From: a virus
Strand: one strand, 5' to 3'
Virus genome (UHGV): UHGV-0017033
DNA length: 21,783 nucleotides
Shown here: positions 1,654 through 21,782 of the stretch, one piece after another
Position numbering within the stretch: the stretch's first letter is position 1
How the letters are laid out: the number at the start of each line of letters is the position of its first letter
Notes under the pieces: model-generated
Seen by the model: only the letters and a program-made list of their open reading frames with translations
The model's database searches: none
Told to the model about the DNA's origin: nothing
Position numbers and translations under genes: made by a program

Positions 1654-3130
1654 TAACCTGAGCGACGAAGAGCAAATAGAATTGCTCGAGCTACTCGAAG
1701 AAGAAGAGAACTACCGGAACACACACCTGCTATATGAATTTACGCCATACAGCAAACAGCGTGAGTTCATCGACGCCGGGCATGACTATCCAGAGCGCTG
1801 TTTTATGGCTGGTAACCAGCTTGGTAAGTCATTTACTGGTGCTGCTGAAGTCGCGTTTCACCTTACCGGGCGTTATCCGGGCACAAAAGGCTATCCTGCT
1901 GATGGTAAATATGGCGGGGAGTGGAAAGGTAAGCGTTTCTATGAGCCTGTTGTCTTCTGGATTGGTGGCGAGACAAACGAGACTGTAACCAAAACGACTC
2001 AACGCATCCTGTGCGGTCGTATCGAAGAGAATGATGAACCTGGCTACGGTTCCATACCGAAAGAAGACATCATTAGCTGGAAGAAGTCTCCTTTCTTTCC
2101 GAACCTTGTTGATCACCTTCTGGTTAAGCATCACACGGCTGATGGCGTTGAAGATGGCATTTCAATCTGCTACTTCAAACCATACTCGCAAGGCCGCGCT
2201 CGCTGGCAGGGTGACACAATCCACGGCGTGTGGTTTGACGAAGAGCCACCATACAGCATTTATGGTGAAGGCCTTACCCGTACCAACAAATACGGGCAAT
2301 TCTCAATTCTGACGTTTACCCCGCTGATGGGGATGTCTGACGTTGTTACCAAGTTCCTGAAGAATCCCAGCAAGTCGCAGAAAGTCGTCAACATGACCAT
2401 CTATGACGCCGAGCACTACACAGACGAGCAGAAAGAGCAAATCATCGCATCCTATCCTGAGCATGAGAGAGAGGCGCGTGCTCGCGGTATTCCTACGATG
2501 GGTAGTGGTCGAATCTTCCAGATACCGGAAGAGACTATTAAGTGTCAGCCGTTCGAGTGTCCTGATCACTTCTACGTAATTGGCGGGATGGATTTCGGAT
2601 GGGATCACCCACAGGCGCAGGTTCAACTTTGGTGGGATAAGGACGCAGACACAATCTACGTTTCACGCGTGTGGAAGGCGAAAGAAAAAACAGCCGTTCA
2701 GGCATGGGGAGCTGTTAAATCATGGGCGCATAAAGTGCCAACAGCATGGCCTCATGACGGAAACCAGCACGAGAAGGGCGGCGGTGAGCAGCTCAAAGGA
2801 CAGTATGCAGATGCTGGTTTTATGATGTTGCAGGAGCATGCGACATGGCCTGATGGCGGTAACGCGGTGGAGCCTGGAATCACTGAATTGCGCGACATGA
2901 TGCTTGATGGTCGCTTCAAAGTATTCAACACCTGTGAACCATTCTTTGAGGAGTTCCGCCTCTATCACCGTGATGAAAACGGGAAGATCGTCAAGCTTAA
3001 CGACGACGTGCTATCCGCCGTTCGCTATGCATACATGATGCGCCGCTTCGCCAAAATGATGCGCGACATCAAAAAACCAAAAGAGAAAAAGATACCAGCC
3101 CCAATCAGGCCCATCGCACGGAGAACTTAA
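1631..3130 (+). CDS. Terminase large subunit (P22 gp2-like)
   Basis: 499-aa ORF directly after and overlapping the small terminase; nuclease-region motif [15 protein letters not shown] is consistent with a phage large terminase; the position matches P22 gene 2. Confidence 0.92.
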
Positions 3131-5296
3131 ATGGCCGACGAAAACAGACTCAATTCCATTCTGTGTAAGTTTGACGCAGACTGGATGGCGAGCGATGAAG
3201 CCAGAACCGAGGCGACAAATGACCTGTATTTTAGCCGAGTGTCGCAATGGGATGACTGGCTATCAAACTACACCACCCTGCAATATCGCGGACAATTCGA
3301 TGTTGTCCGCCCGGTTGTCAGGAAGTTGGTCGCAGAGATGCGCCGGAACCCTATCGACGTTCTCTTCCGACCAAAAGACGGTGCTAATCCTGATGCTGCC
3401 GATGTGCTGATGGGGATGTATCGTACTGATATGCGCCATAACACGGCAAAAATTGCCGTTAATGTTGGCGTTCGTGAGCAGATAGAGTCAGGCGTTGGTG
3501 CATGGCGTCTGGTCACGCAGTACGAAGACAACGACCCAACAAGCAACAATCAGGTAATCCGACGCCTGCCAATCCATGAAGCCTGCTCACACGTCATATG
3601 GGACGCCAACAGCAAGCAGATGGATAAGAGCGACGCTAAGCATTGCACGGTGATTAACGCTTTGTCACGCAATGGTTGGAAAGAGTTCGCAGAGGATTAC
3701 GGTATTGATCCGGACACCTTGCCATCTTTCCAGAATCCAAACGATACATGGCTGTTTCCGTGGGTATCAAATGATGTCGTCTACGTCGCTGAGTATTACG
3801 AGGTCGAAGAGAAGAAAGAGAAAGTCTTCATCTACCGCGACCCGCTGACAGGTGAGCCGGTCAGCTATTACCAGCAGGATATCAAAGACGTTATCGACGA
3901 CCTTGCTAATCGTGGATTCATTAAGGTAGCAGAGCGCAAGGTGAAGCGTCGGCGTGTGTATAAGTCGATCATCACCTGCACGCAGATACTGAAAGACCGC
4001 GAGAAGATAGCTGGAGAGCATATCCCAATCGTTCCAGTGTATGGCGAATGGTCATTCGCTGGTGACAAGGAGTGCTACGAAGGTGTAGTAAGGCTGACGA
4101 AAGACGGTCAACGCCTTCGTAACATGATCATGTCATTCAACGCCGATATTGTTGCTCGTTCACCGAAGAAGAAGCCGACCTTCTTCCCTGAGCAAATCGA
4201 AGGCTACGAATACATGTACGGTGGAAATGATGACTATCCGTACTATTTGCAGAACAAGACCGATGAAAACGGCAACGACCTGCCGATTGGTCCAATCTCC
4301 TACATGGAAAACCCTGAAGTGCCGCAAGCCAACGCTTACATGCTTGAGGCTGCCACCAACGCAGTGAAAGAGGTGGCTAGTCTTGGCGTGGATGCGCAGG
4401 CGGCAAATGGTCAGGTCGCTTTCGATACCGTCAATCAACTGAACATGCGGGCAGACCTTGAGACATACGTGTTTCAGGATAACCTGGCTACCGCAATGCG
4501 ACGTGATGGCGAGATTTATGCCTCAATGGTCAATGATATTTATGACGTTCCTCGTCATGTAACGCTGACACTTGAAGATGGAAGCGAGAAAGACGTTCAA
4601 CTCTATGCGCAAGTTGTCGATTACCAGTCCGGCAATGTGGTCACACTCAACGACATTCGCGGTCGCTATGAGTGCTATACAGACGTTGGACCATCCTTCC
4701 AGAGTATGAAGGAACAGAATCGCGCAGAGATTCAGGAGTTGCTAACAAAGGTTCCGCAAGGTACTCCAGAGTTCCAGATGCTGATGCTGCAATACTTCAC
4801 GCTGCTTGACGGTAAAGGCGTCGAGATGATGCGAGAGTACGCGAACAAGCAACTGGTGATGATGGGGCTGAAGAAACCAGAAACACCTGAAGAGATGGAG
4901 ATGGTACAGCAGGCTCAACAGCAGCCGCAGCAGCCATCAGCAGAGCAAATTCAGGCGCAGGGTATCCTTCTGCAAGGTCAGGCTGAATTGCTCAAGGCAG
5001 AGAACCAACAGGCGCAGATTCAGGTTGAAGCCGCCAAGGTTGAAGCTCAAAACCAACTCAACGCCGCGAAGATTGCAGAAATCTTCAACAATATGGACCT
5101 CGACAAGCAGGCAGAACTGCGTGAGTACCTCAAGCTCGTAGGTCAATTCCAGCAACAGCGCAGCAAAGACGCTCGCGCTAACGCTGAGCTGCTTCTTAAA
5201 GATGCAGACCAGACTCATTCACAACGCATGGATTTCGCGAATCTTATGCGTCAAGTTCAAATCCCCTCCGGCGGAGTAGCCGAGACACCTCAATAA
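3131..5296 (+). CDS. Portal protein (P22 gp1-like)
   Basis: 721-aa ORF; long stretches match my recollection of P22 portal ([53 protein letters not shown]-rich C-terminal barrel region). GGAGAA Shine-Dalgarno before the ATG. Confidence 0.93.
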
Positions 5297-5309
5297 GAGA
5301 GAGTTAATC

Positions 5310-6221
5310 ATGAACCCAACCACCGACATTCAGGCTTCTGAAGAATTAACCCTGCCCGGCAATCATGCAGCGGCATCTGCTGATGGCTTAGTTGTCGATA
5401 ATGCCAACGACAACGCAGGTCAGGAAGAAGGCTTCGAGATTGTCCTGAAAGACGATGAGAAACCAAAACAAGACCCGGCAACTAATGCTGAATTTGCCCG
5501 CCGCCGCATCGAACGCAAACGCCAGCGTGAGCTTGAGCAACAGATGGAAGCGGTTAAGCGTGGAGAGTTGCCGGAGCACCTGCGGGTGAACCCTGAGTTA
5601 CCAAAACAACCAGACCCTAACGATTATCTTTCCGAAGACGCACTGGCTAAGTATGACTATGACCAGAGCCGCGCACTGGCTGCCTTCCAGCAGGCAAACA
5701 GTGAATGGCAGATCAAGGCTATGGACGCACGAAGCCAGGCTGTAGCCGAGCAGGGCCGCAAAACTCAGGAGTTCACCCAGCAATCAGCGCAATACGTCGA
5801 GGCAGCCCGTAAGCACTACGACGCAGCGGAAAAGCTCAATATCCCTGACTATCAGGAGAAAGAGGATGCATTCATGCAACTGGTGCCGCCAGCAGTCGGT
5901 GCCGACATCATGCGCCTCTTCCCGGAGAAATCCGCTGCTCTCATGTATCACCTTGGTGCTAATCCTGAGAAAACACGCCAGTTGCTGGCGATGGACGGGC
6001 AATCCGCGCTGATTGAACTCACTCGACTGTCAGAACGTTTAACTCTCAAGCCTCGAGCCAAGCCTGTTTCAGAAGCCCCGTTACCTGATGAACCCATTCA
6101 GGGTCACGCTGTTGCTGCAAATATCTCTGCGATTGAAAAGCAGATGGAAGCGGCAGCAAACAAAGGGGATGTAGAGACGTACCGCAAGCTCAAGGCGCAA
6201 CTGAATAAAGGAATTCGATAA
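5310..6221 (+). CDS. Scaffolding protein (P22 gp8-like)
   Basis: 303-aa ORF, same length as recalled for P22 gp8; acidic, helix-rich sequence ending in the coat-binding-like [19 protein letters not shown]; sits between portal and coat. Confidence 0.9.
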
Positions 6222-12284: not shown

Positions 12285-13649
12285 ATGGCTACGTGGCAAC
12301 AGGGTATTAATTCTGGTGGTTTTCTGGCTGGCATCGGTACGCAAAATGAGAATGCGCCAAAGGCAAGCGACATTAACGCAACGCTTGGTCTGATCCGCGA
12401 AAACAATGAACTGGCTCGCTCAGGTGCAAATAACGTTGGCCTGACCGCGTTACGTGGTCTGGCTGGAGTTGCTGATATTTACAATCAGGAACAGCAACAG
12501 AAAGCTATTAGTGCGTTCAATAAGGTTCACGCTGATGCATGGGCTTCTGGTGATCCATCGGGACTATTTAAGTTTGCCCAGGAAAATCCAGCGTTTGTTG
12601 CACAGGCACAACAGGCGTTTTCCGGTCTTAATGATCAGCAACGCAACGATATGGGCGATTTAGCCATGAGGGCTAACGTCGCTCTTTCTCAGGGACCGGA
12701 AGCCTACAGTAAATTCATTACTGATAACAAGGACAGGTTAAATCGCGTGGGGGCGAATGCTGACTGGATGATTCAGACAGGTATTCAGAATCCAGAGCAG
12801 CTATCACACATGCTGACTACTATGTCTCTCGGTGCACTTGGGCCAGAAAAGGCGTTTGCTGTTCAGGACAAGATGGCTGGTCGTGAAATTGACCGAGGCA
12901 GGCTGGCAGAGACAATCCGCAGCAATCAGGCTGGCGAGGCGCTAACAGCACGAGGTCAGAATATCACGATGCGCGGTCAGGATTTATCGATGCAGAGAGC
13001 ATCAATGAAAGGGGCGGTTGGGAATAATGAGCGTACAGTTCAGTTAGCAGATGGCAGAACTGTAACGGTAGGCGGGAAGCTTCACGGCGCTGGGGCTAAT
13101 GCGTTCTACGAAGGTATCGACAACGAGGGGAATATGGTTCGCGTTCCTGCTGGCTCTATTGCCGCTCCGGCTACATCGGCAGCAAGCGCGCAGAATTACG
13201 CAATGAAGAAAGATCTTGATGCAATTTCTGGTGCATCAATTGACGATCTTGGCTTCATGACTGGCATTACAGGCTCTTCAGGTTCTCCTGCTCTTGGTGC
13301 AGATATTCGTAGCCGTGCATCTGGTGGTGATCAGAGGAAACTATACAACGCTGCACAGCGAATCCAAGGAAAGATGCAGAATCAGGGCATTGCAGCAGCC
13401 AGAGACATGGGGGCATCCGGTATCAACACCGTTGCAGAAGCAAAGATGTATTTTCAAGGTATGCCACAGGTTGATTTCTCAAGCCCTGAAGCACTGCAAC
13501 AATCAATGCGCGACATTCAGCAATATACCGACAATTACAACCAACAATATAACGTTAATGTTGGTAAATCTCAGCGGCAGCAATCTCAACCTACACAGGT
13601 ATCACAGCCAGCAGCCAGCAGTAACTTTTCTTCACTATGGGGTGATTAA
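12285..13649 (+). CDS. Ejection (internal virion) protein, P22 gp20-like
   Basis: 454-aa ORF following the gp7 homologue; low-complexity Ala/Gln/Gly-rich composition typical of ejection proteins; positional match to P22 gene 20. Confidence 0.8.
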
Positions 13650-15808
13650 TGGCTAAAGCATGGAAAGATGTTATCGCCTCTCCACAGTATCAGGCGTTAA
13701 CTGAAGAACAGAAAGCACAGGCTCAAGCGCAATATTTTGATGAGGTTGTTGCCCCTAAGGCTGGTGACAAATGGGCTGAAGCAAGAGATCAGTTTTATGC
13801 AGCATACCCTCCGCCTCAGCAGCAGAAAGAAGAACCATCATTGATGCAACAAGCTGGTGATTGGCTCACAGGTGGTCAAAGTGCAGGGCAAATTGCAGAG
13901 CAGGCTGGTCGTGGTCTGGTAAACATACCATTCGACGTATTACAGGGCGGCGCAAGCCTGATTAATGCAATCAGCCAGGGGCTTGGTGGCCCCAAGGTTT
14001 TGGATGATGTTTATCGTCCAGTCGATCGACCGACAGACCCTTACGCGCAAGCCGGTGAAACAATTGGTGGGTATCTCCTGCCAATTGGCACAGCGGCAAA
14101 AGCTGCTGGAGCGCCAGCAAAGCTCGCTGAAAATATCGGTTCCGCAGGAAACATGATTGCAGGCTCTCTTGCTGATGCTGCAAATCAGGAGGGTGATTTT
14201 GCACAAAATGCTGCCATTAACGGTGGTATCAATATTGGTGCTCAAGGCGTTCTTTCAGGTGTCGGGCGCGTTATTGCGCCAAGGGTTTCACAGGCTCTTG
14301 GTGGTGCAGCACTGAATTCTGCTAATGATGTTTCCAGGATGGCAAAGTCAGGTGCTGGGCGTCAGTCAATTGCCAGTCAGGCCGCTAATGTGTCCGAAGA
14401 TGTAGCAAAAGCGGCTGAGTCTGCTGGAATTGATATAAACGCATTAACACCAGGAATGCGATCTGGAAGTCGTGGAATTGCACAAGCCGAAGGCGCATTG
14501 GCATCAACACCAGGGATTGTTCAGGATGCCCATCAGGCAGCATTTAACGAAATATCATCAAAGTTAAGTCGAAACCTTGATGAATTTGGGGCCGCATCTG
14601 GAACGGCATCAGAAAAAAGTGCGGCTATAAAACAAAGGATTCTTAAAAATCTTGATCAGATGAAGGATGCTGAGCGCGCGGCATGGGATGACGTGCGGTC
14701 AACAATGCCAAATCAAAAAGCAAGAATGCTAAATGGTAATGCCGTTATTCAGGCAGAGCGATCTGCTGGCATACCGCTTACTCCTGAAATGAAACAGTTT
14801 GTTCAGGCAAACAATCAAGGTGGAGTAACATTTGATGGCATGAAAGCATGGAGAGCGAAATTTGCTGATGCGGAGCAAAAATATAAGCGTAGCGGAGAGG
14901 CAAATGCGGCAAGGAGAGCAGGGGAAATACGTCGGGCAATTACTGATGATATGCGCACAATGGCGGAAAACGGCGGATTTTTTGATGACTGGCAAAAAGC
15001 TAATGATCTGTCTAAAGCGAGGCTATCCGCACAAGAGAGTGCAGAGTCTGTTTTTGGGCGTGATTTGGCAACAGATGCACTGATTACGAATGGAGTAAAA
15101 TCTCTTCAATCATCGTCAGCTAAAGGTCTTAATGGTCCTGCTGGATTCCATTCTATGATCCGCGCGCTGCCAGAATCAGAGCGTGTTCCTGCTATATCAT
15201 CAATGTTGCAGGATGCTATCTCGCATGGTGTACGTGGTGGCAAATCTGATGCAGCAGGAATTAACCATATCGCAGGGATACTTACACCACAAAATGTAAA
15301 AGCCATTAGCAGATATTCCTCAGAACTTGGAAGAATTGCTGATGCATATGGCACTCTTGCAAGAGCAGCAGTGAAACCTCAGCAGTATATTGAAAGAACA
15401 GGGAGAACTGCCAATGTACTACGCGATCTGGATGCTGGTTTATCCAACGTCACATCAACAGTGTTAAATGCAATTGCCAACTCAACATCAGGTGCCATTG
15501 TTGGTGGCGCTGGAGGGGGCATTGCAGGCGCTGCCGCGGGTGCTTTAGTTGGCGCCGGGTTAAAAGGCGCTGTATCTAAAATTGCCACCACACGTAGTGG
15601 TCGATATGCGATAGAGAAAGCTGTTCAGGAAGCCACCAAAGCAGTAAGAGCTGGCGGAAGTAAAGAAGCATTAGCGGCGGCGGAACGCAGATTTATGGCA
15701 AATAAAGCCGCCGTAAAAGCAATACGTGATGCAGTTGGAAACGAAGAGTTCAATCGCTTAGCGAGGGCTGGCATTGTAGCGTCGCTAAGCGGAATAGCAC
15801 AGGAGTAA
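13649..15808 (+). CDS. Ejection (internal virion) protein, P22 gp16-like, apparently extended
   Basis: 719-aa ORF, last gene of the late-operon block; Ala/Gly-rich with hydrophobic glycine-zipper-like segment [24 protein letters not shown] near the C-terminus; positional match to P22 gene 16. Confidence 0.8.
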
Positions 15809-16132
15809 TTAATCATCCATGGATGGATTGAGCTTATCTCGTGTTGATGTGGCGATTTGTCCTACATTCCTAATCCAAGATTTCAAATCCTTGATATTGT
15901 CATTGATTTCATGAATATCTTCTTTTTTTAGCCTGTTAATATTATTCTCAATAATTTCAATGGATTGCTCAATATCAGATATGGTGAATGATAGTTTGTT
16001 CTTCTCATCTTTTATTGAGTTTTTAAGTGCTTCGTTCTCAGTCTTGAGGTCAGATATCTTTTGTTTTAAAGATGCCAGTTGGTACTGAACCACAATGAGT
16101 GCGATAGCTATCACGATAACTGTTGTATACAC
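15809..16132 (-). CDS. Small membrane-anchored coiled-coil protein (moron; function unknown)
   Basis: 107-aa minus-strand ORF starting at GTG with a strong AAGGAGG Shine-Dalgarno 5 nt upstream. N-terminal transmembrane helix TTVIVIAIALIVV followed by a heptad-rich Lys/Glu/Asn/Ile segment. Lies in a strikingly AT-rich islet, tail-to-tail with gp16. Confidence 0.65.
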   Translation of the reverse strand: MYTTVIVIAIALIVVQYQLASLKQKISDLKTENEALKNSIKDEKNKLSFTISDIEQSIEIIENNINRLKKEDIHEINDNIKDLKSWIRNVGQIATSTRDKLNPSMDD

Positions 16133-16249
16133 ACCAACCTCCTTAGTTTTGAGCAGGATACCATGAAAAAAGTAAACATCTTTTGCCTACTTCACATTTG
16201 AATGGTTTGTCATTAGGATGTTTCCGGTTTTTTAAATATGGAAATTGAT

Positions 16250-16669
16250 ATGAAGAGGATTATTGGCGTCGTTGCTGGCGCTATATTGTTATCTGGGTGC
16301 GCAACTATTGTTGGTGACGAAACGCAGCTTGTGCAAGTGAACAGCAATCCTTCCGGTGCGAGCTTTAAGGTAAAAGACGAATCAGGCGTGATTGTTGCGC
16401 AAGGTAAGACCCCGCAAGGAGTAACTCTTGCCAAGTCAGATGGTAGTTATTTTGGCAAAAAGAGCTACCAGATCACTATGGAAAAGGATGGGTACGAACC
16501 AGTTACCCTGCCAATCAAAGCCAATGCTAATGGCTGGTATATTGGTGGAAACCTTGTGTTTGGTGGGTTAATTGGTTGGCTTGCTGTAGATCCTTTTAAT
16601 GGTGGGATGTATACCTTGAAGCCAAAAGAGGCAAACGCATCTCTTATACCATCAACAAAGCAAGACTAA
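16250..16669 (+). CDS. Putative outer-membrane lipoprotein with PEGA-like domain (moron; function unknown)
   Basis: Signal peptide MKRIIGVVAGAILLSGC with lipobox LSGC; NPSGASFKV...GKTPQGVTL...KDGYEP resembles a PEGA domain (recalled motif); Gly/Trp-rich C-terminal segment. An upstream in-frame ATG at 16238 is an alternative start. Followed by an intrinsic terminator. Confidence 0.7.
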   Translation: MKRIIGVVAGAILLSGCATIVGDETQLVQVNSNPSGASFKVKDESGVIVAQGKTPQGVTLAKSDGSYFGKKSYQITMEKDGYEPVTLPIKANANGWYIGGNLVFGGLIGWLAVDPFNGGMYTLKPKEANASLIPSTKQD

Positions 16670-17189: not shown

Positions 17190-17262
17190 AGTTGAAGCCC
17201 CAACTGCGGGAACAGTCAGGGCTTCGGTTGTCAGTAAATCCGTGGAGAAAAACCAACATGAA
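17190..17262 (-). ncRNA. sar: Putative sar antisense RNA (small antirepressor-regulating RNA) in the arc-ant intercistronic region
   Basis: By analogy with P22, where a short antisense RNA is transcribed from the arc-ant spacer and pairs with the ant ribosome-binding site. The minus strand here contains inverted repeats GAAGCCC/GGGCTTC. Exact ends are not determinable from sequence alone. Confidence 0.4.
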
Positions 17263-18293: not shown

Positions 18294-20297
18294 ATGACAG
18301 ACATTACAGCCAATGTTGTGGTAAGCATGCCTTCGCAACTCTTCACTATGGCTCGTTCTTTTAAAGCGGTTGCCAATGGCAAAATTTATATCGGTAAAAT
18401 TGACACTGACCCTGTAAATCCTGAAAACCAGATTCAGGTTTATGTGGAGAACGAAGACGGCTCTCACGTTCCTGTATCGCAACCAATCATCATTAACGCC
18501 GCTGGTTACCCTGTATATAACGGACAGATTGCCAAATTCGTAACTGTGCAAGGCCATTCTATGGCTGTTTATGATGCATATGGTGCGCAGCAGTTTTATT
18601 TTCCTAATGTGCTGAAGTATGATCCTGATCAGTTATCTATAAAACTATCAAGTAATATTGGATACAAATACATTGGAATGGTAGAGAGCGCTAACTCCCT
18701 TAAAGATATACAAGGAATGTCGATATCTGATAAATTATATTTAAAATCATACGTATCCGGACTCGAACTTGGTGGTGGGTTTGTTGTAGCTGTAGACAAG
18801 TCAATTGCAGTTGATAACGTAATGGTTTTAGAAGGTAACGGTGTAAATTGGAAGAGAATAAACCCAAGCCTTGAGTTTTCTGTATATGACGCTGGTTACA
18901 GCGGCGCTGGGGATATTGCATTATTTATTAATAAAATAAACTCTCTAGGTTATGATTGCGTTGTTCCATGTAGTGGAGAATTCTCGTCTTTAATTGATAT
19001 TGATTTCGCGAAGGGTGGGTTAAGAGGAACGAATAAATGCGTTTTAACTGAGATTAATGGGATATCAGGTGATTATGCAATTAGGTTAAGCAGCTCTAAT
19101 ATTTCTTATGATAATAGGGATGAAATAAATGCAACATCAATTTTAGATGGCATATCTTTTAAGATGCTAGGATCTAAAAAGATTTTACTTGGAGGTATTG
19201 GCGCTGGTGAATTATCAGAGTTAAGAATAAGTAATTCTTCATTCATATCATCTGCTGGAATTGAGTTTCTTGATAATTCATATAGAATTTTATTTGACAA
19301 GGTAACAATATCAAGATGTCTAAACAACACAATTATATTTAATTCTCCATCAAACTCAGGCGAGGTAATGACATTTAATAATTGTTGGGTTGTTGATAAT
19401 GGAGGTCCATTGACAATTAGAAATGGTCAATTTATTTTTAACTGTTGCTCTATGCCAGCAGGTAAGAAAGAAGGTTATTTTGATTCTACTGTTTTTATTG
19501 AAGATAACGCAACCGTTGTTTACTCAAGTGGAAATATTGAGTTTCAGCCAGGTCAAAGCTTTGTTGCGTTCTCTTCATCTGGAAGCACAAGAATAAGCAT
19601 TAAAGATACAACGCTACTTACTCCCTCTGGATATAGTTCAGTTCCGTTTGTTGTAAATGATGATTCAGTACTTTCATTAACAAATTGCTCATTGCCTTTA
19701 TTTGACCAAATGGATTTGGCGACAGGATCAGCAACTAGACAGGTAGTTGGAGGTAATAGTAAAAAAATAATGTCATATGGATGCTATCCACGATCTGGAT
19801 TTATAACAACTCAGTGGGATAAAGGGAACATAGTTAGTCCATACATAAATTCGCTATCAAATGGAAGTGGACAGTTTTTAAACTACTCTAACTGGAGCCT
19901 TCAACAAACTGGTTCAGGTGTTGTTACAGCAGGAACGGATTCTGATGTTCCAAATGATATTATGTTTTCCAGGTCTTTGTATGTAGCAATACCATCTATA
20001 GGAGCATCTGCAAAATTTTATCAGGAGTGCTCAGACTGCTCACCAGGACGATATTTCCAGTTAGGTTTTTGGGCTAAGAATCAAGTGACAACAATCTCTG
20101 GTATTGAGTTTTTTGATAAAGAAGGGAACTCTGTTCAGGGAAAAGCAACATTTACAATTCCACTAGGCTCCACATGGAATTTCTACGCATTAATAGATAT
20201 TGTTCCTCCTGGAGCAAGCAAAGTTAGGATTGATTTTGATGTTTCCGGTGAAGCAGGCTCTCTTCATTTGCATAATGTTATTTATGGGCTGATTTGA
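18294..20297 (+). CDS. Tailspike protein: conserved P22/Sf6-type head-binding N-terminal domain fused to a divergent, AT-rich receptor-binding body
   Basis: N-terminal ~112 aa ([43 protein letters not shown]...VLKYDPDQ) match the conserved head-binding domain of P22-like tailspikes. Beyond about nt 18630 the DNA becomes visibly AT-rich and the protein no longer resembles P22 gp9 as recalled. 667 aa. Confidence 0.85.
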
Positions 20298-20388: not shown

Positions 20389-21546
20389 TCACTCCACCTT
20401 TTCATCAATCCAATCCGCCCACCATTGCATCATTTCTCTGCGCTTTTCTAGATACTGAGCATGGTTGTAAATCCCACGCACAGATCCGCCGTTGGCATGT
20501 GCCAGTTGCACTTCAATAGCGTCAGCAGGCCATTCGTGCTCGTTCATAATTGTGCTGAATTCATGCCTGAATCCGTGACCGCTTTCCAGACCCTCATAGC
20601 CGATTTGTTTGATCACAAGTAGCACCGCGTTCTCGCAGATTGGCTTCTTCTTATCGTTGCGTCCGGCAAAAACAAACTCTGATACTGGTTTGGTGATGGA
20701 GCTTAGCGTAGTGAGAAGTTCAACCACCTGGTCTGACATCGGGACCACATGAATTTTGCGTCCCTTCATCACACTGGCGTCGATGGTGATAATCCTGTTT
20801 TCAAAATCGACGTTCTTCCATAGCATGGAACGAAGCTCTTTCGTTCTTAGGGCTGTGTAGCGTAAAACTTTGGTCGCAATGAGCGATACGATGCTTCCTG
20901 AAAATGTTGCCAGTGCTTTGTTGAATGCAGGGATCTGGTCTGCAGGAAGAAACGGGAAGTTCTTCTTGCGGTATCCTTTCATGGCGTCAGCAAGGTCAGG
21001 TGCCGGGTTATATTTAGCCCTGCCGGTGACAATAGCGTAACGGAAAACCTCGCCGCATCTTCTGCGGGCTTTATTGGCTCGTTCCATTGCACCGCGATCT
21101 TCAAATCTGCGGATTACTTCCAGCAGTTGCATCGGCTCAATATCCTGAATTTCAAGGCCGCCGATGATAGGTAAAATGTCGTCATCAAACATTTTTGCAA
21201 GTTCAGTCGCATACCCTACTGACCATACTTGCTTCTTGTGCTCGTACCATTCCTTGTAAATCGCACTAAAGGAATTGTTGTTAGACGAAGCCTTTTTCGC
21301 CTTTACCGGATCGATGCCAACCGAGATGTCTTTCCTCGCAGTCCATGCCTTATCCCTTGCCTCCTGCAAAGTCATTAGCGGATATTTTCCTACGGTCAGG
21401 ATTTTCTCCTTACCGTCAATCTTGTAGCGAAGCTGCCATACCTTTTTCCCGGATACAGGGACATAAAGGTACAGGCCATTACCATCGAGAAGGCGGTATG
21501 GTTTTTCTTTCGGCTTTGCTGCTTCAATCTGCTTAACGGTGAGCAT
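20389..21546 (-). CDS. int: Tyrosine site-specific integrase (argW-associated IntS/Sf6-type)
   Basis: Translation from the ATG at 21546 (MLTVKQIEAAKPKEKPYRLLDGNGLYLYVPVSGKKVWQLRY...) has an integrase N-terminal arm-binding domain and a C-terminal catalytic region with HGFRHEF and a downstream RGIY-type tyrosine motif. Same strand as, and directly downstream of, tRNA-Arg. The track ORF extends to a GTG at 21582. Confidence 0.9.
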   Translation of the reverse strand: MLTVKQIEAAKPKEKPYRLLDGNGLYLYVPVSGKKVWQLRYKIDGKEKILTVGKYPLMTLQEARDKAWTARKDISVGIDPVKAKKASSNNNSFSAIYKEWYEHKKQVWSVGYATELAKMFDDDILPIIGGLEIQDIEPMQLLEVIRRFEDRGAMERANKARRRCGEVFRYAIVTGRAKYNPAPDLADAMKGYRKKNFPFLPADQIPAFNKALATFSGSIVSLIATKVLRYTALRTKELRSMLWKNVDFENRIITIDASVMKGRKIHVVPMSDQVVELLTTLSSITKPVSEFVFAGRNDKKKPICENAVLLVIKQIGYEGLESGHGFRHEFSTIMNEHEWPADAIEVQLAHANGGSVRGIYNHAQYLEKRREMMQWWADWIDEKVE

Positions 21547-21707
21547 GGGTAAAAATCCGGTGGGTAAAATTATTTTATCCACTTTTTACCCGTCATGGAG
21601 TGCGGCTGTCAACGATCTGAAGCGAACCATGGCGAACTGTGAATCTACGGAAGGCTTGATATTAAGGGGATTTTGCGGACTGGTACGGATGGGAGCGAAC
21701 TGATAAA

Positions 21708-21782
21708 TGGTGTCCCCTGCAGGAATCGAACCTGCAATTAGCCCTTAGGAGGGGCTCGTTATATCCATTTAACTAAGAGGAC
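21708..21782 (-). tRNA. argW: tRNA-Arg (anticodon CCU), complete 75-nt gene with encoded CCA; argW-type phage attachment target
   Basis: Minus-strand sequence GTCCTCTTAGTTAAATGGATATAACGAGCCCCTCCTAAGGGCTAATTGCAGGTTCGATTCCTGCAGGGGACACCA folds as a cloverleaf (acceptor GTCCTCT/AGGGGAC, anticodon stem with CU-CCT-AA loop, T-loop GGTTCGATTCC) and matches E. coli argW as I recall it. Confidence 0.93.

What the first reader, a model, noticed from the sequence alone, without database searches (positions are those of the whole stretch)
15809..16132. GTG-initiated membrane-anchored coiled-coil protein in an AT-rich islet at the sieA slot
In P22 the segment between gene 16 and mnt carries sieA (superinfection exclusion). 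Here that slot holds a 107-aa minus-strand gene unlike anything in the surrounding module. It has one N-terminal transmembrane helix (TTVIVIAIALIVV), a long heptad-rich coiled coil, and a near-perfect AAGGAGG Shine-Dalgarno 5 nt before a GTG start. The DNA is far more AT-rich than the flanking virion genes, pointing to recent acquisition. A small bitopic coiled-coil protein expressed from a prophage is a plausible superinfection-exclusion, injection-blocking or abortive-infection effector, but I cannot assign it to a known family.
Basis: partly seen in the sequence, partly recalled or inferred. Interest (0 to 1): 0.72.

Follow-up and report, generated by a model that had tools for sequence, protein, structure and literature searches.

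The report
Known hkcB gene in sieA slot
This small gene is real but was already catalogued in 2001 as hkcB, a gene of unknown function in P22-like phages; it sits behind the same expression signals as the P22 superinfection-exclusion gene sieA, which makes it a testable candidate prophage defence protein.

Summary
The ORF at 15809-16132 (-) is as described: 107 aa, GTG start, AAGGAGG 5 nt upstream, hydrophobic N-terminus, one long predicted helix, and GC 0.34 against 0.48 in gene 16. It is not an orphan. It is HkcB (phrog_5962), 98% identical to epsilon34 gp14, 96% to CUS-3 HkcB and 55% to HK620 HkcB. All of these are annotated as function unknown. The window is a P22-like prophage at tRNA-Arg(cct).

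New here: the 34 nt ending in the GTG (16130-16163) form an invariant block. The same block, with one mismatch, precedes P22 sieA, and a diverged copy precedes type-B sieA. In 148 phage loci it heads 12 unrelated AT-rich cargo genes, nearly all encoding envelope proteins, and every one is convergent on gene 16. HkcB never co-occurs with sieA. It is always fused stop-to-stop to an HK620/CUS-3-type gene 16, even in remote homologues, and it is under purifying selection (dN/dS 0.28).

Best reading (about 0.45): a prophage-expressed, inner-membrane-anchored blocker of DNA injection by P22-like phages, analogous but not homologous to SieA. The function is untested. "Recent acquisition" is not supported.

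The parts
15809..16132 (-). hkcB coding sequence: 107 aa, GTG start, TAA stop. The protein has an N-terminal membrane anchor followed by one long helix.
   Evidence: ORF list. phrog_5962 E 5.6e-58. 98% identical to epsilon34 gp14, 96% to CUS-3 HkcB, 55% to HK620 HkcB. dN/dS 0.28. AlphaFold2 helix 2-101.
16130..16163 (-). Invariant 34-nt expression block TGGTATCCTGCTCAAAACTAAGGAGGTTGGTGTG. It holds an extended -10-like TGnTATCCT at 16155-16163, the Shine-Dalgarno AAGGAGG at 16138-16144, a 5-nt spacer, and the GTG start at 16130-16132.
   Evidence: One exact match in the window. The same block lies in front of 12 unrelated cargo genes in 148 loci, always with GTG at +5 except in 3 loci with a 7-nt duplication. 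It lies in front of P22 sieA with 1 mismatch. Conservation collapses on both sides of the block.
16164..16180 (-). A further 17 nt (ATGTTTACTTTTTTCAT) shared with the P22/HK620 sieA-promoter region, with 1 difference. It lies inside the stretch annotated as PsieA in the P22 record.
   Evidence: Upstream comparison of window, P22, HK620 and Salmonella loci. P22 annotation of the sieA promoter at 13861-13891.
16076..16129 (-). Codons 2-19: the hydrophobic membrane anchor YTTVIVIAIALIVVQYQL. No homologue has K or R before it, and 2-4 K/R follow within the next 15 residues.
   Evidence: Hydropathy and flank charges for 15 homologues.
15821..15895 (-). Codons 80-104: the family's hallmark C-terminal motif I..LK.W..NVG.IATSTRDK.NPS.
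   Evidence: Invariant columns in alignments A1 and A2. Kept as LKxWxxNVG in the remote homologues P0022 and P0024. dN/dS 0.15 with dS 0.90 for codons 71-107.
13649..15808 (+). Gene 16, the ejection / DNA-transfer protein, of HK620/CUS-3 type (719 aa). Its stop codon abuts the hkcB stop codon, giving TAA|TTA with a 0-nt gap.
   Evidence: phrog_770 E 5.6e-230. 98.6% identical to CUS-3 gp16 and 77% to HK620 gp16. A 0-nt gap in all 31 HkcB loci and in the Leclercia and Salmonella homologues.
16133..16237 (.). Divergent intergenic region between hkcB and the lipoprotein gene (GC 0.34). It holds the block above and a weak plus-strand promoter-like site for the lipoprotein gene.

Best explanation
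hkcB is an allele of the sieA expression slot of P22-like prophages. It is most likely made from the prophage as a small inner-membrane-anchored helical, probably oligomeric, protein that blocks DNA delivery by superinfecting P22-like phages. On this reading it interferes with the gp16/gp20 ejection-protein conduit at the inner membrane, specifically the HK620/CUS-3 type of gp16 with which it is always inherited. It would therefore be a functional analogue of SieA, not a homologue.

Shown here: the gene is real and under purifying selection. It has a hydrophobic N-terminus followed by one long predicted helix. Its 5' signals are the same as those of sieA. Its position is the same as sieA's, convergent on gene 16. 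It is mutually exclusive with sieA. It is strictly linked to one gp16 type.

Inferred: that it is expressed in the lysogen; its topology (N-terminus out, helix in the cytoplasm, from the positive-inside rule); the exclusion phenotype; and gp16 as the target.
For: 1. Same slot and signals. The 34-nt block ending in the GTG start (16130-16163) precedes P22 sieA with one mismatch. The 100 nt upstream of HK620 hkcB match the 100 nt upstream of P22 sieA. Type-B sieA of prophage HS1 carries a diverged copy.
2. Those signals work for sieA. sieA with 85 bp (P22) or 106 bp (HS1) of upstream DNA is sufficient for exclusion, and sieA is transcribed in lysogens (PMC10883804).
3. Slot contents. In 148 loci the block heads 12 unrelated AT-rich cargo classes, one of which is SieA. 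All but one class have TM or signal-like hydrophobic segments, and all are convergent on gene 16 with a 0-60 nt gap.
4. Mutual exclusion. 0 of 44 hkcB-bearing loci also hold sieA type A or B. This window has no sieA.
5. Link to the known target of SieA. SieA escape mutations map to the C-terminal regions of gp16 and gp20. HkcB occurs only with gp16 C-terminus type T1 (31 of 31 loci). The stop codons abut, and this arrangement persists in homologues at 53-59% identity (Leclercia, Salmonella). In the remote homologues P0022 and P0024 the gap is 3-4 nt.
6. Selection. dN/dS is 0.28 overall and 0.15 on the conserved C-terminal motif.
7. Topology. There is no K/R before the anchor in any homologue (E3 in the HK620 type), and 2-4 K/R follow it. 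This fits a cytoplasmic helix. The conserved SieA motif is also predicted to be cytoplasmic.
Against: No experiment on hkcB was found in the searchable literature.

There is no sequence or architectural similarity to SieA. HkcB has one TM against three in P22 (type A) SieA, and it lacks the FxRYPxEAxxFNK motif.

The linkage to gp16 could be mere physical adjacency. The same gp16 C-terminus type T0 carries at least five different cargo classes, and four T1 loci carry other cargos.

No sigma-70 consensus promoter was found on the minus strand upstream. The extended -10 reading of TGGTATCCT is my inference, and CUS-3 and Leclercia copies keep only the SD-spacer-GTG part.

Sharing a slot does not prove sharing a function, and the other cargo classes are also uncharacterised.

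The topology was not predicted with a dedicated tool.
Confidence: 0.45

Rival explanations
1. A prophage-expressed membrane protein that defends against other, unrelated phages by abortive infection or membrane perturbation, not by blocking P22-type injection. It would be a small Abi or membrane effector, or a sensor partner.
For: It has the same moron features: AT-rich, own expression signals, opposite strand to the late operon. It is a membrane anchor plus a helical domain. Cargo classes in the slot are very diverse, so they need not share one target.
Against: No significant match to any of the 5027 PADLOC models, only sub-threshold coiled-coil hits with E of 5e-4 or worse. The strict, ancient coupling to one gp16 type is not explained by this reading. 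[quoted passage not shown]
Confidence: 0.15
2. A partner of the phage's own gp16, not a defence against others. For example, it could give self-immunity to the membrane-active gp16 made late in infection, analogous to the immunity genes of pore-forming colicins. From my own knowledge, not checked here, those genes also lie convergent to the toxin gene. Alternatively it could regulate late or tailspike transcription by antisense read-through.
For: The 0-nt stop-to-stop junction with gene 16 is conserved across the close family, with a 3-4 nt gap in the two remote homologues. HkcB co-diverges with gp16. No terminator-like site was found after hkcB, so its transcript would run antisense into gene 16. 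sieA is upregulated on induction, and a sieA deletion is used to ensure robust tailspike synthesis after induction (PMC10883804).
Against: P22-like phages with the same gp16 type exist without hkcB: 4 of 35 T1 loci carry other cargos. Some P22-like phages, such as Sf6, have no genes at all in this region. P22 hybrids carrying the CUS-3 or HK620 genes 7, 20 and 16 in place of P22's own give essentially normal phage yields on induction (Table 4 of PMC10883804).
Confidence: 0.12
3. A host-physiology moron that mimics bitopic coiled-coil envelope proteins. For example, it could be an FtsB/FtsL/DivIC-like divisome modulator or an O-antigen chain-length or polymerase modulator.
For: The size and architecture (about 100 aa, N-terminal TM, coiled coil, conserved C-terminal tail) resemble FtsB and FtsL. 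There are sub-threshold in-register hits to Pfam DivIC (E 2.3e-4, 21.3 bits) and NCBIfam FtsL (E 0.006-0.016).
Against: The scores are below the curated cut-offs (28.9 and 42-55 bits), among dozens of equally weak coiled-coil hits. There is no positive charge in the N-terminal flank, so the FtsB-like N-in/C-out topology is not favoured. The family occurs in hosts with unrelated O antigens: E. coli H and K1, Salmonella Anatum, Leclercia.
Confidence: 0.07
4. An Rz-like inner-membrane spanin or other lysis component.
For: Weak PHROG hits to Rz-like spanins (E 1e-3 to 3e-2), and a similar TM-plus-coiled-coil layout.
Against: It lies outside the lysis cassette and on the opposite strand from the late operon. 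The related prophage in E. coli H6 has its own holin, endolysin and 'lysis protein' genes upstream. There is no same-strand ORF of 30 aa or more nested inside hkcB; the only neighbouring minus-strand ORF (15625-15816) merely overlaps its last 8 nt and lies antisense within gene 16, so no o-spanin partner is evident. The N-flank charge pattern argues against a periplasmic C-terminus.
Confidence: 0.03

Closest known systems
HkcB of coliphage HK620 (NP_112088), CUS-3 HkcB (ABQ88389), epsilon34 gp14 (ACF16640); PHROG family phrog_5962
   Same: It is the same protein family. Identity is 55% to HK620 HkcB, 96% to CUS-3 HkcB and 98% to epsilon34 gp14. The profile match is full-length. It occupies the same position, stop-to-stop with gene 16.
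   Different: Nothing of substance. This copy is the CUS-3/epsilon34 subtype in an E. coli prophage at tRNA-Arg(cct). All members are annotated as hypothetical or function unknown.
SieA of phage P22, an inner-membrane superinfection-exclusion protein that blocks the gp16/gp20 DNA-delivery conduit (PMC10883804)
   Same: Same genomic slot and orientation. The same 34-nt block ends in a GTG start. Both genes are AT-rich. Both proteins are membrane proteins. The two are mutually exclusive in the loci examined.
   Different: No sequence similarity. HkcB has one TM and a long helix, whereas P22 (type A) SieA has three TMs. HkcB has no FxRYPxEAxxFNK motif. It is linked to a different gp16 type (T1 rather than T0). 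Its function is untested.
Immunity proteins of pore-forming colicins (own knowledge; an analogy only)
   Same: A small inner-membrane protein gene is placed convergent to, and immediately after, the gene of a membrane-inserting protein whose C-terminal region is the target. It has its own constitutive expression signals.
   Different: No homology. The colicin immunity proteins have 3-4 TMs. No interaction between HkcB and gp16 has been shown.
Other prophage inner-membrane injection blockers, such as HK97 gp15 and T4 Imm (own knowledge)
   Same: They are small membrane proteins encoded by morons that stop DNA entry.
   Different: They are unrelated in sequence and belong to a different phage type with a different injection machinery. 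None of them came up in any search run here.
Cargo class E109 of the same slot (109 aa, MLEIIV...)
   Same: The same block, the same layout of acidic or uncharged N-tail, TM and helix, and weak similarity over the N-terminal half (hhalign probability 65%, 43% identity over 49 columns).
   Different: It has an unrelated C-terminal half and is linked to gp16 C-terminus type T0.

Membership tests
HkcB / phrog_5962 | Full-length profile match to the family | tested here: met
   E 5.6e-58, residues 1-107 on profile positions 3-109 of 109. 55-98% identity to named members.
HkcB / phrog_5962 | Position immediately after gene 16, on the opposite strand, in a P22-like genome | tested here: met
   A 0-nt gap to gene 16 in the window and in all 31 IMG/VR HkcB loci, in HK620, CUS-3 and epsilon34, and in the Leclercia and Salmonella prophages.
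SieA (P22 superinfection exclusion A) | Sequence similarity to SieA types A, B or C, including the FxRYPxEAxxFNK motif | tested here: not met
   The motif is absent from the HkcB alignment. tblastn with SieA A and B finds no hkcB locus.
SieA (P22 superinfection exclusion A) | Polytopic inner-membrane protein (three TMs in P22 type A; an extra predicted TM in types B and C) | tested here: not met
   HkcB has one hydrophobic segment; P22 SieA has at least three by the same scale.
SieA (P22 superinfection exclusion A) | Located between genes 16 and 9, behind the PsieA region | tested here: met
   The same 34-nt block with 1 mismatch. The HK620 hkcB upstream 100 nt are nearly identical to the P22 sieA upstream.
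SieA (P22 superinfection exclusion A) | Blocks DNA injection by P22-like phages when expressed alone | not testable with these tools
   This needs plating, K+ efflux or DNA-entry assays.
Rz-like i-spanin | Significant profile match; partner o-spanin lipoprotein gene embedded or adjacent; location in the lysis cassette | tested here: not met
   Only E 1e-3 to 3e-2 to spanin PHROGs. No same-strand ORF of 30 aa or more is nested inside hkcB; the only neighbouring minus-strand ORF (15625-15816) merely overlaps its last 8 nt and lies antisense within gene 16. The gene lies after gene 16 on the strand opposite the late operon.
DivIC/FtsB/FtsL (PF04977, TIGR02209) | Score at or above the curated gathering threshold | tested here: not met
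   21.3 bits against a cut-off of 28.9. FtsL models give 15-16 bits against cut-offs of 42-55.
Known anti-phage defence systems (PADLOC-DB 2.0) | Significant match to a component model | tested here: not met
   The best hit is E 4.7e-4, to coiled-coil stretches of JetC, LmuB and PbeC.

The most novel reading that the evidence does not exclude
The site right after gene 16 is a swap-in 'immunity cassette' locus. A conserved 34-nt linker carrying promoter-like, RBS and GTG signals lets P22-like phages exchange at least 12 unrelated small envelope-protein genes, sieA among them. Each cargo travels with a particular gp16 C-terminus. On this reading HkcB is the cognate blocker of the HK620/CUS-3-type gp16 channel, a colicin-immunity-like arms race over phage DNA delivery. 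The other eleven cargo classes would then include several further undescribed exclusion proteins.
Probability: 0.3. Interest if true: 0.7.

Novelty: new member of a known kind. Interest (0 to 1): 0.5.

Why it matters
SieA is the only characterised occupant of this slot, and only about a third of sequenced P22-like phages carry it (22 of 66, PMC10883804).

If HkcB and the other cargo classes are alternative injection blockers, that would explain what the remaining phages carry there. [quoted passage not shown]

It would provide a set of small, unrelated membrane proteins that each jam the same trans-envelope DNA conduit. These would be useful probes of a poorly understood step of podovirus infection.

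hkcB is common enough to affect phage susceptibility. It is found in 155 of 5426 complete E. coli genomes (72 carrying a near-full-length copy), including ST131 and ETEC strains.

The experiment is simple and the strains already exist: CUS-3, HK620 and the P22 hybrids.

Tried and rejected
- Curated family assignment. Pfam, NCBIfam, PADLOC, a PDB profile search and Foldseek against viral structures gave only sub-threshold coiled-coil noise or nothing. A single long helix is not informative for fold search, so I ran no further fold searches.
- Profile search of 1.84 billion representatives. It returned only five clusters below E 1e-10. The family is narrow, and no informative distant relative emerged apart from P0022 and P0024.
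- Exact 25-mer scan of GTDB species representatives. It found nothing. The block is confined to P22-like (pro)phages that are absent from those representative genomes.
- Consensus sigma-70 scan. It found no minus-strand promoter upstream of hkcB. I therefore do not claim a mapped promoter.
- Literature. No functional data turned up for hkcB, its accessions or phrog_5962.
- Rejected readings. 'Spurious ORF in AT-rich DNA' fails on the dN/dS value and conserved synteny. 'Recent horizontal acquisition' fails on the co-divergence with gp16. 'Spanin' and 'FtsB/DivIC homologue' fail their membership tests.
- First structure submission. I repeated it without that row.

Full report
**1. The observation**

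The minus-strand ORF at 15809..16132 exists. It encodes 107 aa and starts with GTG. AAGGAGG lies at 16138-16144 on the minus strand, 5 nt before the GTG.

The first roughly 20 residues (MYTTVIVIAIALIVVQYQLA) are strongly hydrophobic, with a Kyte-Doolittle 15-mer mean of 2.76. AlphaFold2 on a 14-sequence alignment predicts one uninterrupted helix from residue 2 to 101, with mean pLDDT 80.5.

Hydrophobic periodicity near 3.5-3.6 residues is above 97% of shuffles. Dozens of coiled-coil families hit below threshold. 'Coiled coil' is therefore plausible but not proven.

The ORF has GC 0.336, against 0.482 for gene 16 and 0.473 for the whole window. The only other stretch this AT-rich is inside the tailspike gene.

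**2. Identity**

The window is the late region of a P22-like (Lederbergvirus) prophage. The gene order is terminase, portal, scaffold, coat, genes 4/10/26/14, ejection genes 7/20/16, then hkcB, a lipoprotein gene, mnt, arc, sar RNA, ant, tailspike, integrase and tRNA-Arg(cct).

The 107-aa protein matches phrog_5962 ('unknown function') end to end at E 5.6e-58. It is 98% identical to epsilon34 gp14, 96% to CUS-3 HkcB, 93.5% to a SEN22 protein and 55% to HK620 HkcB. Identical DNA occurs in several complete E. coli chromosomes. Overall, 155 of 5426 genomes hold a match, and 72 of those hold a near-full-length one.

The epsilon34 genome paper names this region the 'ant moron'. It states that genes 14 and 15 are of unknown function and that gene 14 is the hkcB homologue (PMC2629481). 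No paper in the searchable library gives hkcB a function.

**3. The family**

The word-indexed search found 21 clusters. The exhaustive profile search of 1.84 billion representatives found only five clusters below E 1e-10. The family is narrow and enterobacterial.

The alignment shows three parts: a conserved anchor, a variable helical middle, and an almost invariant C-terminal motif I..LK.W..NVG.IATSTRDK.NPS. A core LKxWxxNVG survives in the remote homologues P0022 and P0024.

Between the two subtypes (CUS-3-like and HK620-like), dN/dS is 0.28. For codons 71-107 it is 0.15 although dS is 0.90, so the motif is kept by selection and not by recent recombination.

**4. The new observation: a shared expression block**

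The megablast showed four phages that match only 34 nt of the query. In JEP4 and E212 those 34 nt precede unannotated, GTG-initiated, two-TM ORFs of 62 and 75 aa. Both lie in the same place, right after gene 16 on the opposite strand.

An exact scan of IMG/VR with the 25-mer core and its one-base variant gave 147 contigs. With the other loci held, that makes 148 occurrences. Downstream of the block there is a GTG at +5, except in three loci with a 7-nt duplication.

The ORFs that follow fall into 12 unrelated classes:

| Class | Loci | Description |
|---|---|---|
| A129 | 41 | 129-aa protein with a signal peptide |
| HkcB | 35 | both subtypes |
| E109 | 22 | 109-aa TM-plus-helix protein |
| B75 | 14 | 75-aa two-TM protein |
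| C62 | 13 | 62-aa two-TM protein |
| D99 | 5 | 99-aa protein with a signal peptide |
| F149 | 4 | 149-aa TM protein |
| I103 | 4 | 103-106-aa TM protein |
| SieA | 4 | includes P22 itself |
| G140 | 3 | 140-aa protein with no hydrophobic segment |
| H68 | 2 | 68-aa, YobH-like by Pfam |
| J116 | 1 | 116-aa multi-TM protein |

All classes are AT-rich, with GC 0.33-0.42. Eleven of the twelve have hydrophobic N-terminal or TM segments. None except the YobH-like class matches Pfam or PADLOC.

Upstream of the block the sequence comes in at least five unrelated flavours, combined freely with the cargos. Across 92 distinct contexts, conservation is at least 95% for the 34 nt TGGTATCCTGC(T/A)CAAAACTAAGGAGGTTGG(T/C)GTG, apart from the two variable positions marked. 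It falls below 60% immediately on both sides. The 25 selected positions are conserved by construction. The other 9 positions are not selected and are still conserved.

In the window the block is at 16130-16163 on the minus strand. The block occurs in 224 of 5426 complete E. coli genomes and in none of the GTDB species representatives.

**5. Equivalence with the sieA slot**

P22 sieA (13336-13830, minus strand, 22 nt after gene 16) is preceded by the same block with one mismatch. The P22 record annotates the sieA promoter directly 5' of it. The 100 nt upstream of HK620 hkcB are nearly identical to those upstream of P22 sieA. The type-B sieA of prophage HS1 has a diverged copy of the block and an ATG start.

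Leavitt et al. showed several things about SieA. It is an inner-membrane protein. The gene with 85 bp (P22) or 106 bp (HS1) of upstream DNA suffices for exclusion. It blocks DNA injection by P22-like phages only. Escape mutations lie in the C-terminal regions of gp16 and gp20. Only 22 of 66 P22-like phages carry sieA (PMC10883804).

None of the 44 hkcB-bearing loci held here also carries sieA type A or B, and this window has none. hkcB is therefore an allele of the sieA expression slot.

**6. Linkage to gene 16**

Every cargo lies convergent to a gene 16 homologue with a 0-60 nt gap.

HkcB (31 of 31 loci with a readable neighbour) is found only with gp16 C-terminus type T1 (...[18 protein letters not shown]), always with a 0-nt gap (TAA|TTA). 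Conversely, 31 of 35 T1 loci carry HkcB. SieA, A129, E109 and C62 go with type T0, the P22-like C-terminus. B75 goes with T2.

The stop-to-stop junction recurs in homologues of 53-59% identity in Leclercia and Salmonella. In the remote homologues P0022 and P0024 the gap is 3-4 nt. Their gp16 neighbours are 64% identical to the window's gp16. P22 gp16 shares only its N-terminal roughly 155 aa with the window's gp16.

The HkcB1 subtype goes with CUS-3-like gp16 (15 of 15 loci). HkcB2 goes mostly with HK620-like gp16 (8 of 11).

The pairing is therefore old, which contradicts 'recent acquisition'. Whether it reflects function (cognate recognition of this gp16 type) or only adjacency cannot be decided from sequence. 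Type T0 carries several cargos, so adjacency alone does not fix the cargo.

**7. Topology**

No homologue has K or R before the anchor, and the HK620 subtype has E3 there. Within the 15 residues after the anchor there are 2-4 K/R. By the positive-inside rule (established knowledge) this favours N-terminus out and helix in the cytoplasm. That is the opposite of Rz, FtsB and DivIC.

Within the slot, cargos that start MK(K/R/Q) look like signal peptides or N-in hairpins. Cargos that start MYTT, MLEW, MLEI or MYIS share the HkcB pattern. No dedicated predictor was available, so I put this at about 70%.

**8. Mechanism**

The best-supported reading has four parts:
- HkcB is made from the prophage via the sieA-type signals.
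- It inserts into the inner membrane by its N-terminal anchor.
- It oligomerises through its long helix.
- Its conserved C-terminal motif interferes with the incoming gp16/gp20 conduit of P22-like phages, particularly those with HK620/CUS-3-type gp16.

Shown: gene reality, architecture, slot identity, exclusivity with sieA and the gp16 linkage. Inferred: expression in lysogens, topology, target and phenotype. I give this reading about 0.45.

The rivals are as follows:
- A defence against unrelated phages (0.15).
- A partner or self-immunity factor for the phage's own gp16, or an antisense regulator of the late operon (0.12). No terminator follows hkcB.
- A host-physiology moron mimicking FtsB/FtsL-type proteins (0.07).
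- A spanin (0.03).

**9. Comparison and novelty**

As a sequence this is a known family (hkcB, 2001; phrog_5962), and the copy here is a near-identical member. As a function it would be a further, structurally unrelated kind of inner-membrane injection blocker in a known class, the prophage superinfection-exclusion proteins. It fails every defining sequence or architecture test for SieA and passes the positional ones.

I did not find the shared 34-nt block and its 12 cargo classes described in the literature I could search. The HK620 genome paper (J Mol Biol 2001) and the Hofer 1995 sieA paper are not in the library, so prior mention cannot be excluded.

**10. Verdict**

The gene itself is ordinary in the sense of being already catalogued. 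The finding's value is a sharp, cheap, testable hypothesis plus the slot-wide pattern. Interest is 0.5.

Noticed in passing
window 16130-16163 (-); loci L005-L155: An invariant 34-nt block (TGGTATCCTGCTCAAAACTAAGGAGGTTGGTGTG) ending in a GTG start heads 12 unrelated AT-rich cargo genes in 148 P22-like phage loci. P22 sieA is one of them. The upstream flanks come in at least 5 unrelated flavours, so the block behaves as a mosaic junction and shared expression signal.
   Followed up: yes
L005 (phage JEP4, MT740315) 2315-2503 (-); L006 (phage E212, MZ043897) 2276-2503 (-): Two GTG-initiated two-TM ORFs of 62 and 75 aa lie right after gene 16 and behind the same block. Neither is annotated in the deposited records. 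The same ORFs recur in 13 and 14 loci respectively.
   Followed up: partly
window 16238-16669 (+): The divergent neighbour of hkcB is a lipoprotein: it has the lipobox LLSGC, equals epsilon34 gp15 and phrog_6823, and has only a weak sub-threshold PEGA-domain hit. It is another moron of unknown function. Its upstream flank combines with several different cargo classes, so it is not specifically tied to hkcB.
   Followed up: partly
L002 (CUS-3) 3325-5484 vs L003 (HK620) 3280-5448: By BLASTP, CUS-3 and HK620 gp16 are 77% identical over their full length (N-terminal 240 aa above 90%, the middle 47-77%, the C-terminal 60 aa 85% or more). PMC10883804 states that these two gp16 proteins are only 26% identical. 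I did not resolve the discrepancy.
   Followed up: partly
window 15806-15811: The stop codons of gene 16 (TAA) and hkcB (TTA on the plus strand) abut to form the palindrome TAATTA. No terminator-like structure follows hkcB, so its transcript would run antisense into gene 16.
   Followed up: no
cargo class E109 (e.g. L016, L053, L080): A second 109-aa TM-plus-helix cargo (MLEIIV...) resembles HkcB over the N-terminal half only (hhalign probability 65%; shared ...EN..LKNSI...). Its C-terminal half is unrelated, and it is linked to the P22-type gp16 C-terminus. This hints at mosaic exchange of C-terminal halves together with the adjoining gene 16 end.
   Followed up: partly
window 17190-17257 (-); 21708-21782 (-): There is an intact sar antisense RNA (Rfam RF00262, 95.6 bits) between arc and ant, so the immI region looks complete. 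tRNA-Arg(cct) lies at the window end next to the integrase gene (20389-21582, -) and marks the attachment site.
   Followed up: no
window about 18560-19400 (+): The only other strongly AT-rich stretch of the window (GC 0.29-0.36) lies inside the tailspike gene (18294-20297), downstream of the head-binding domain. This is consistent with an exchanged receptor-binding module.
   Followed up: no
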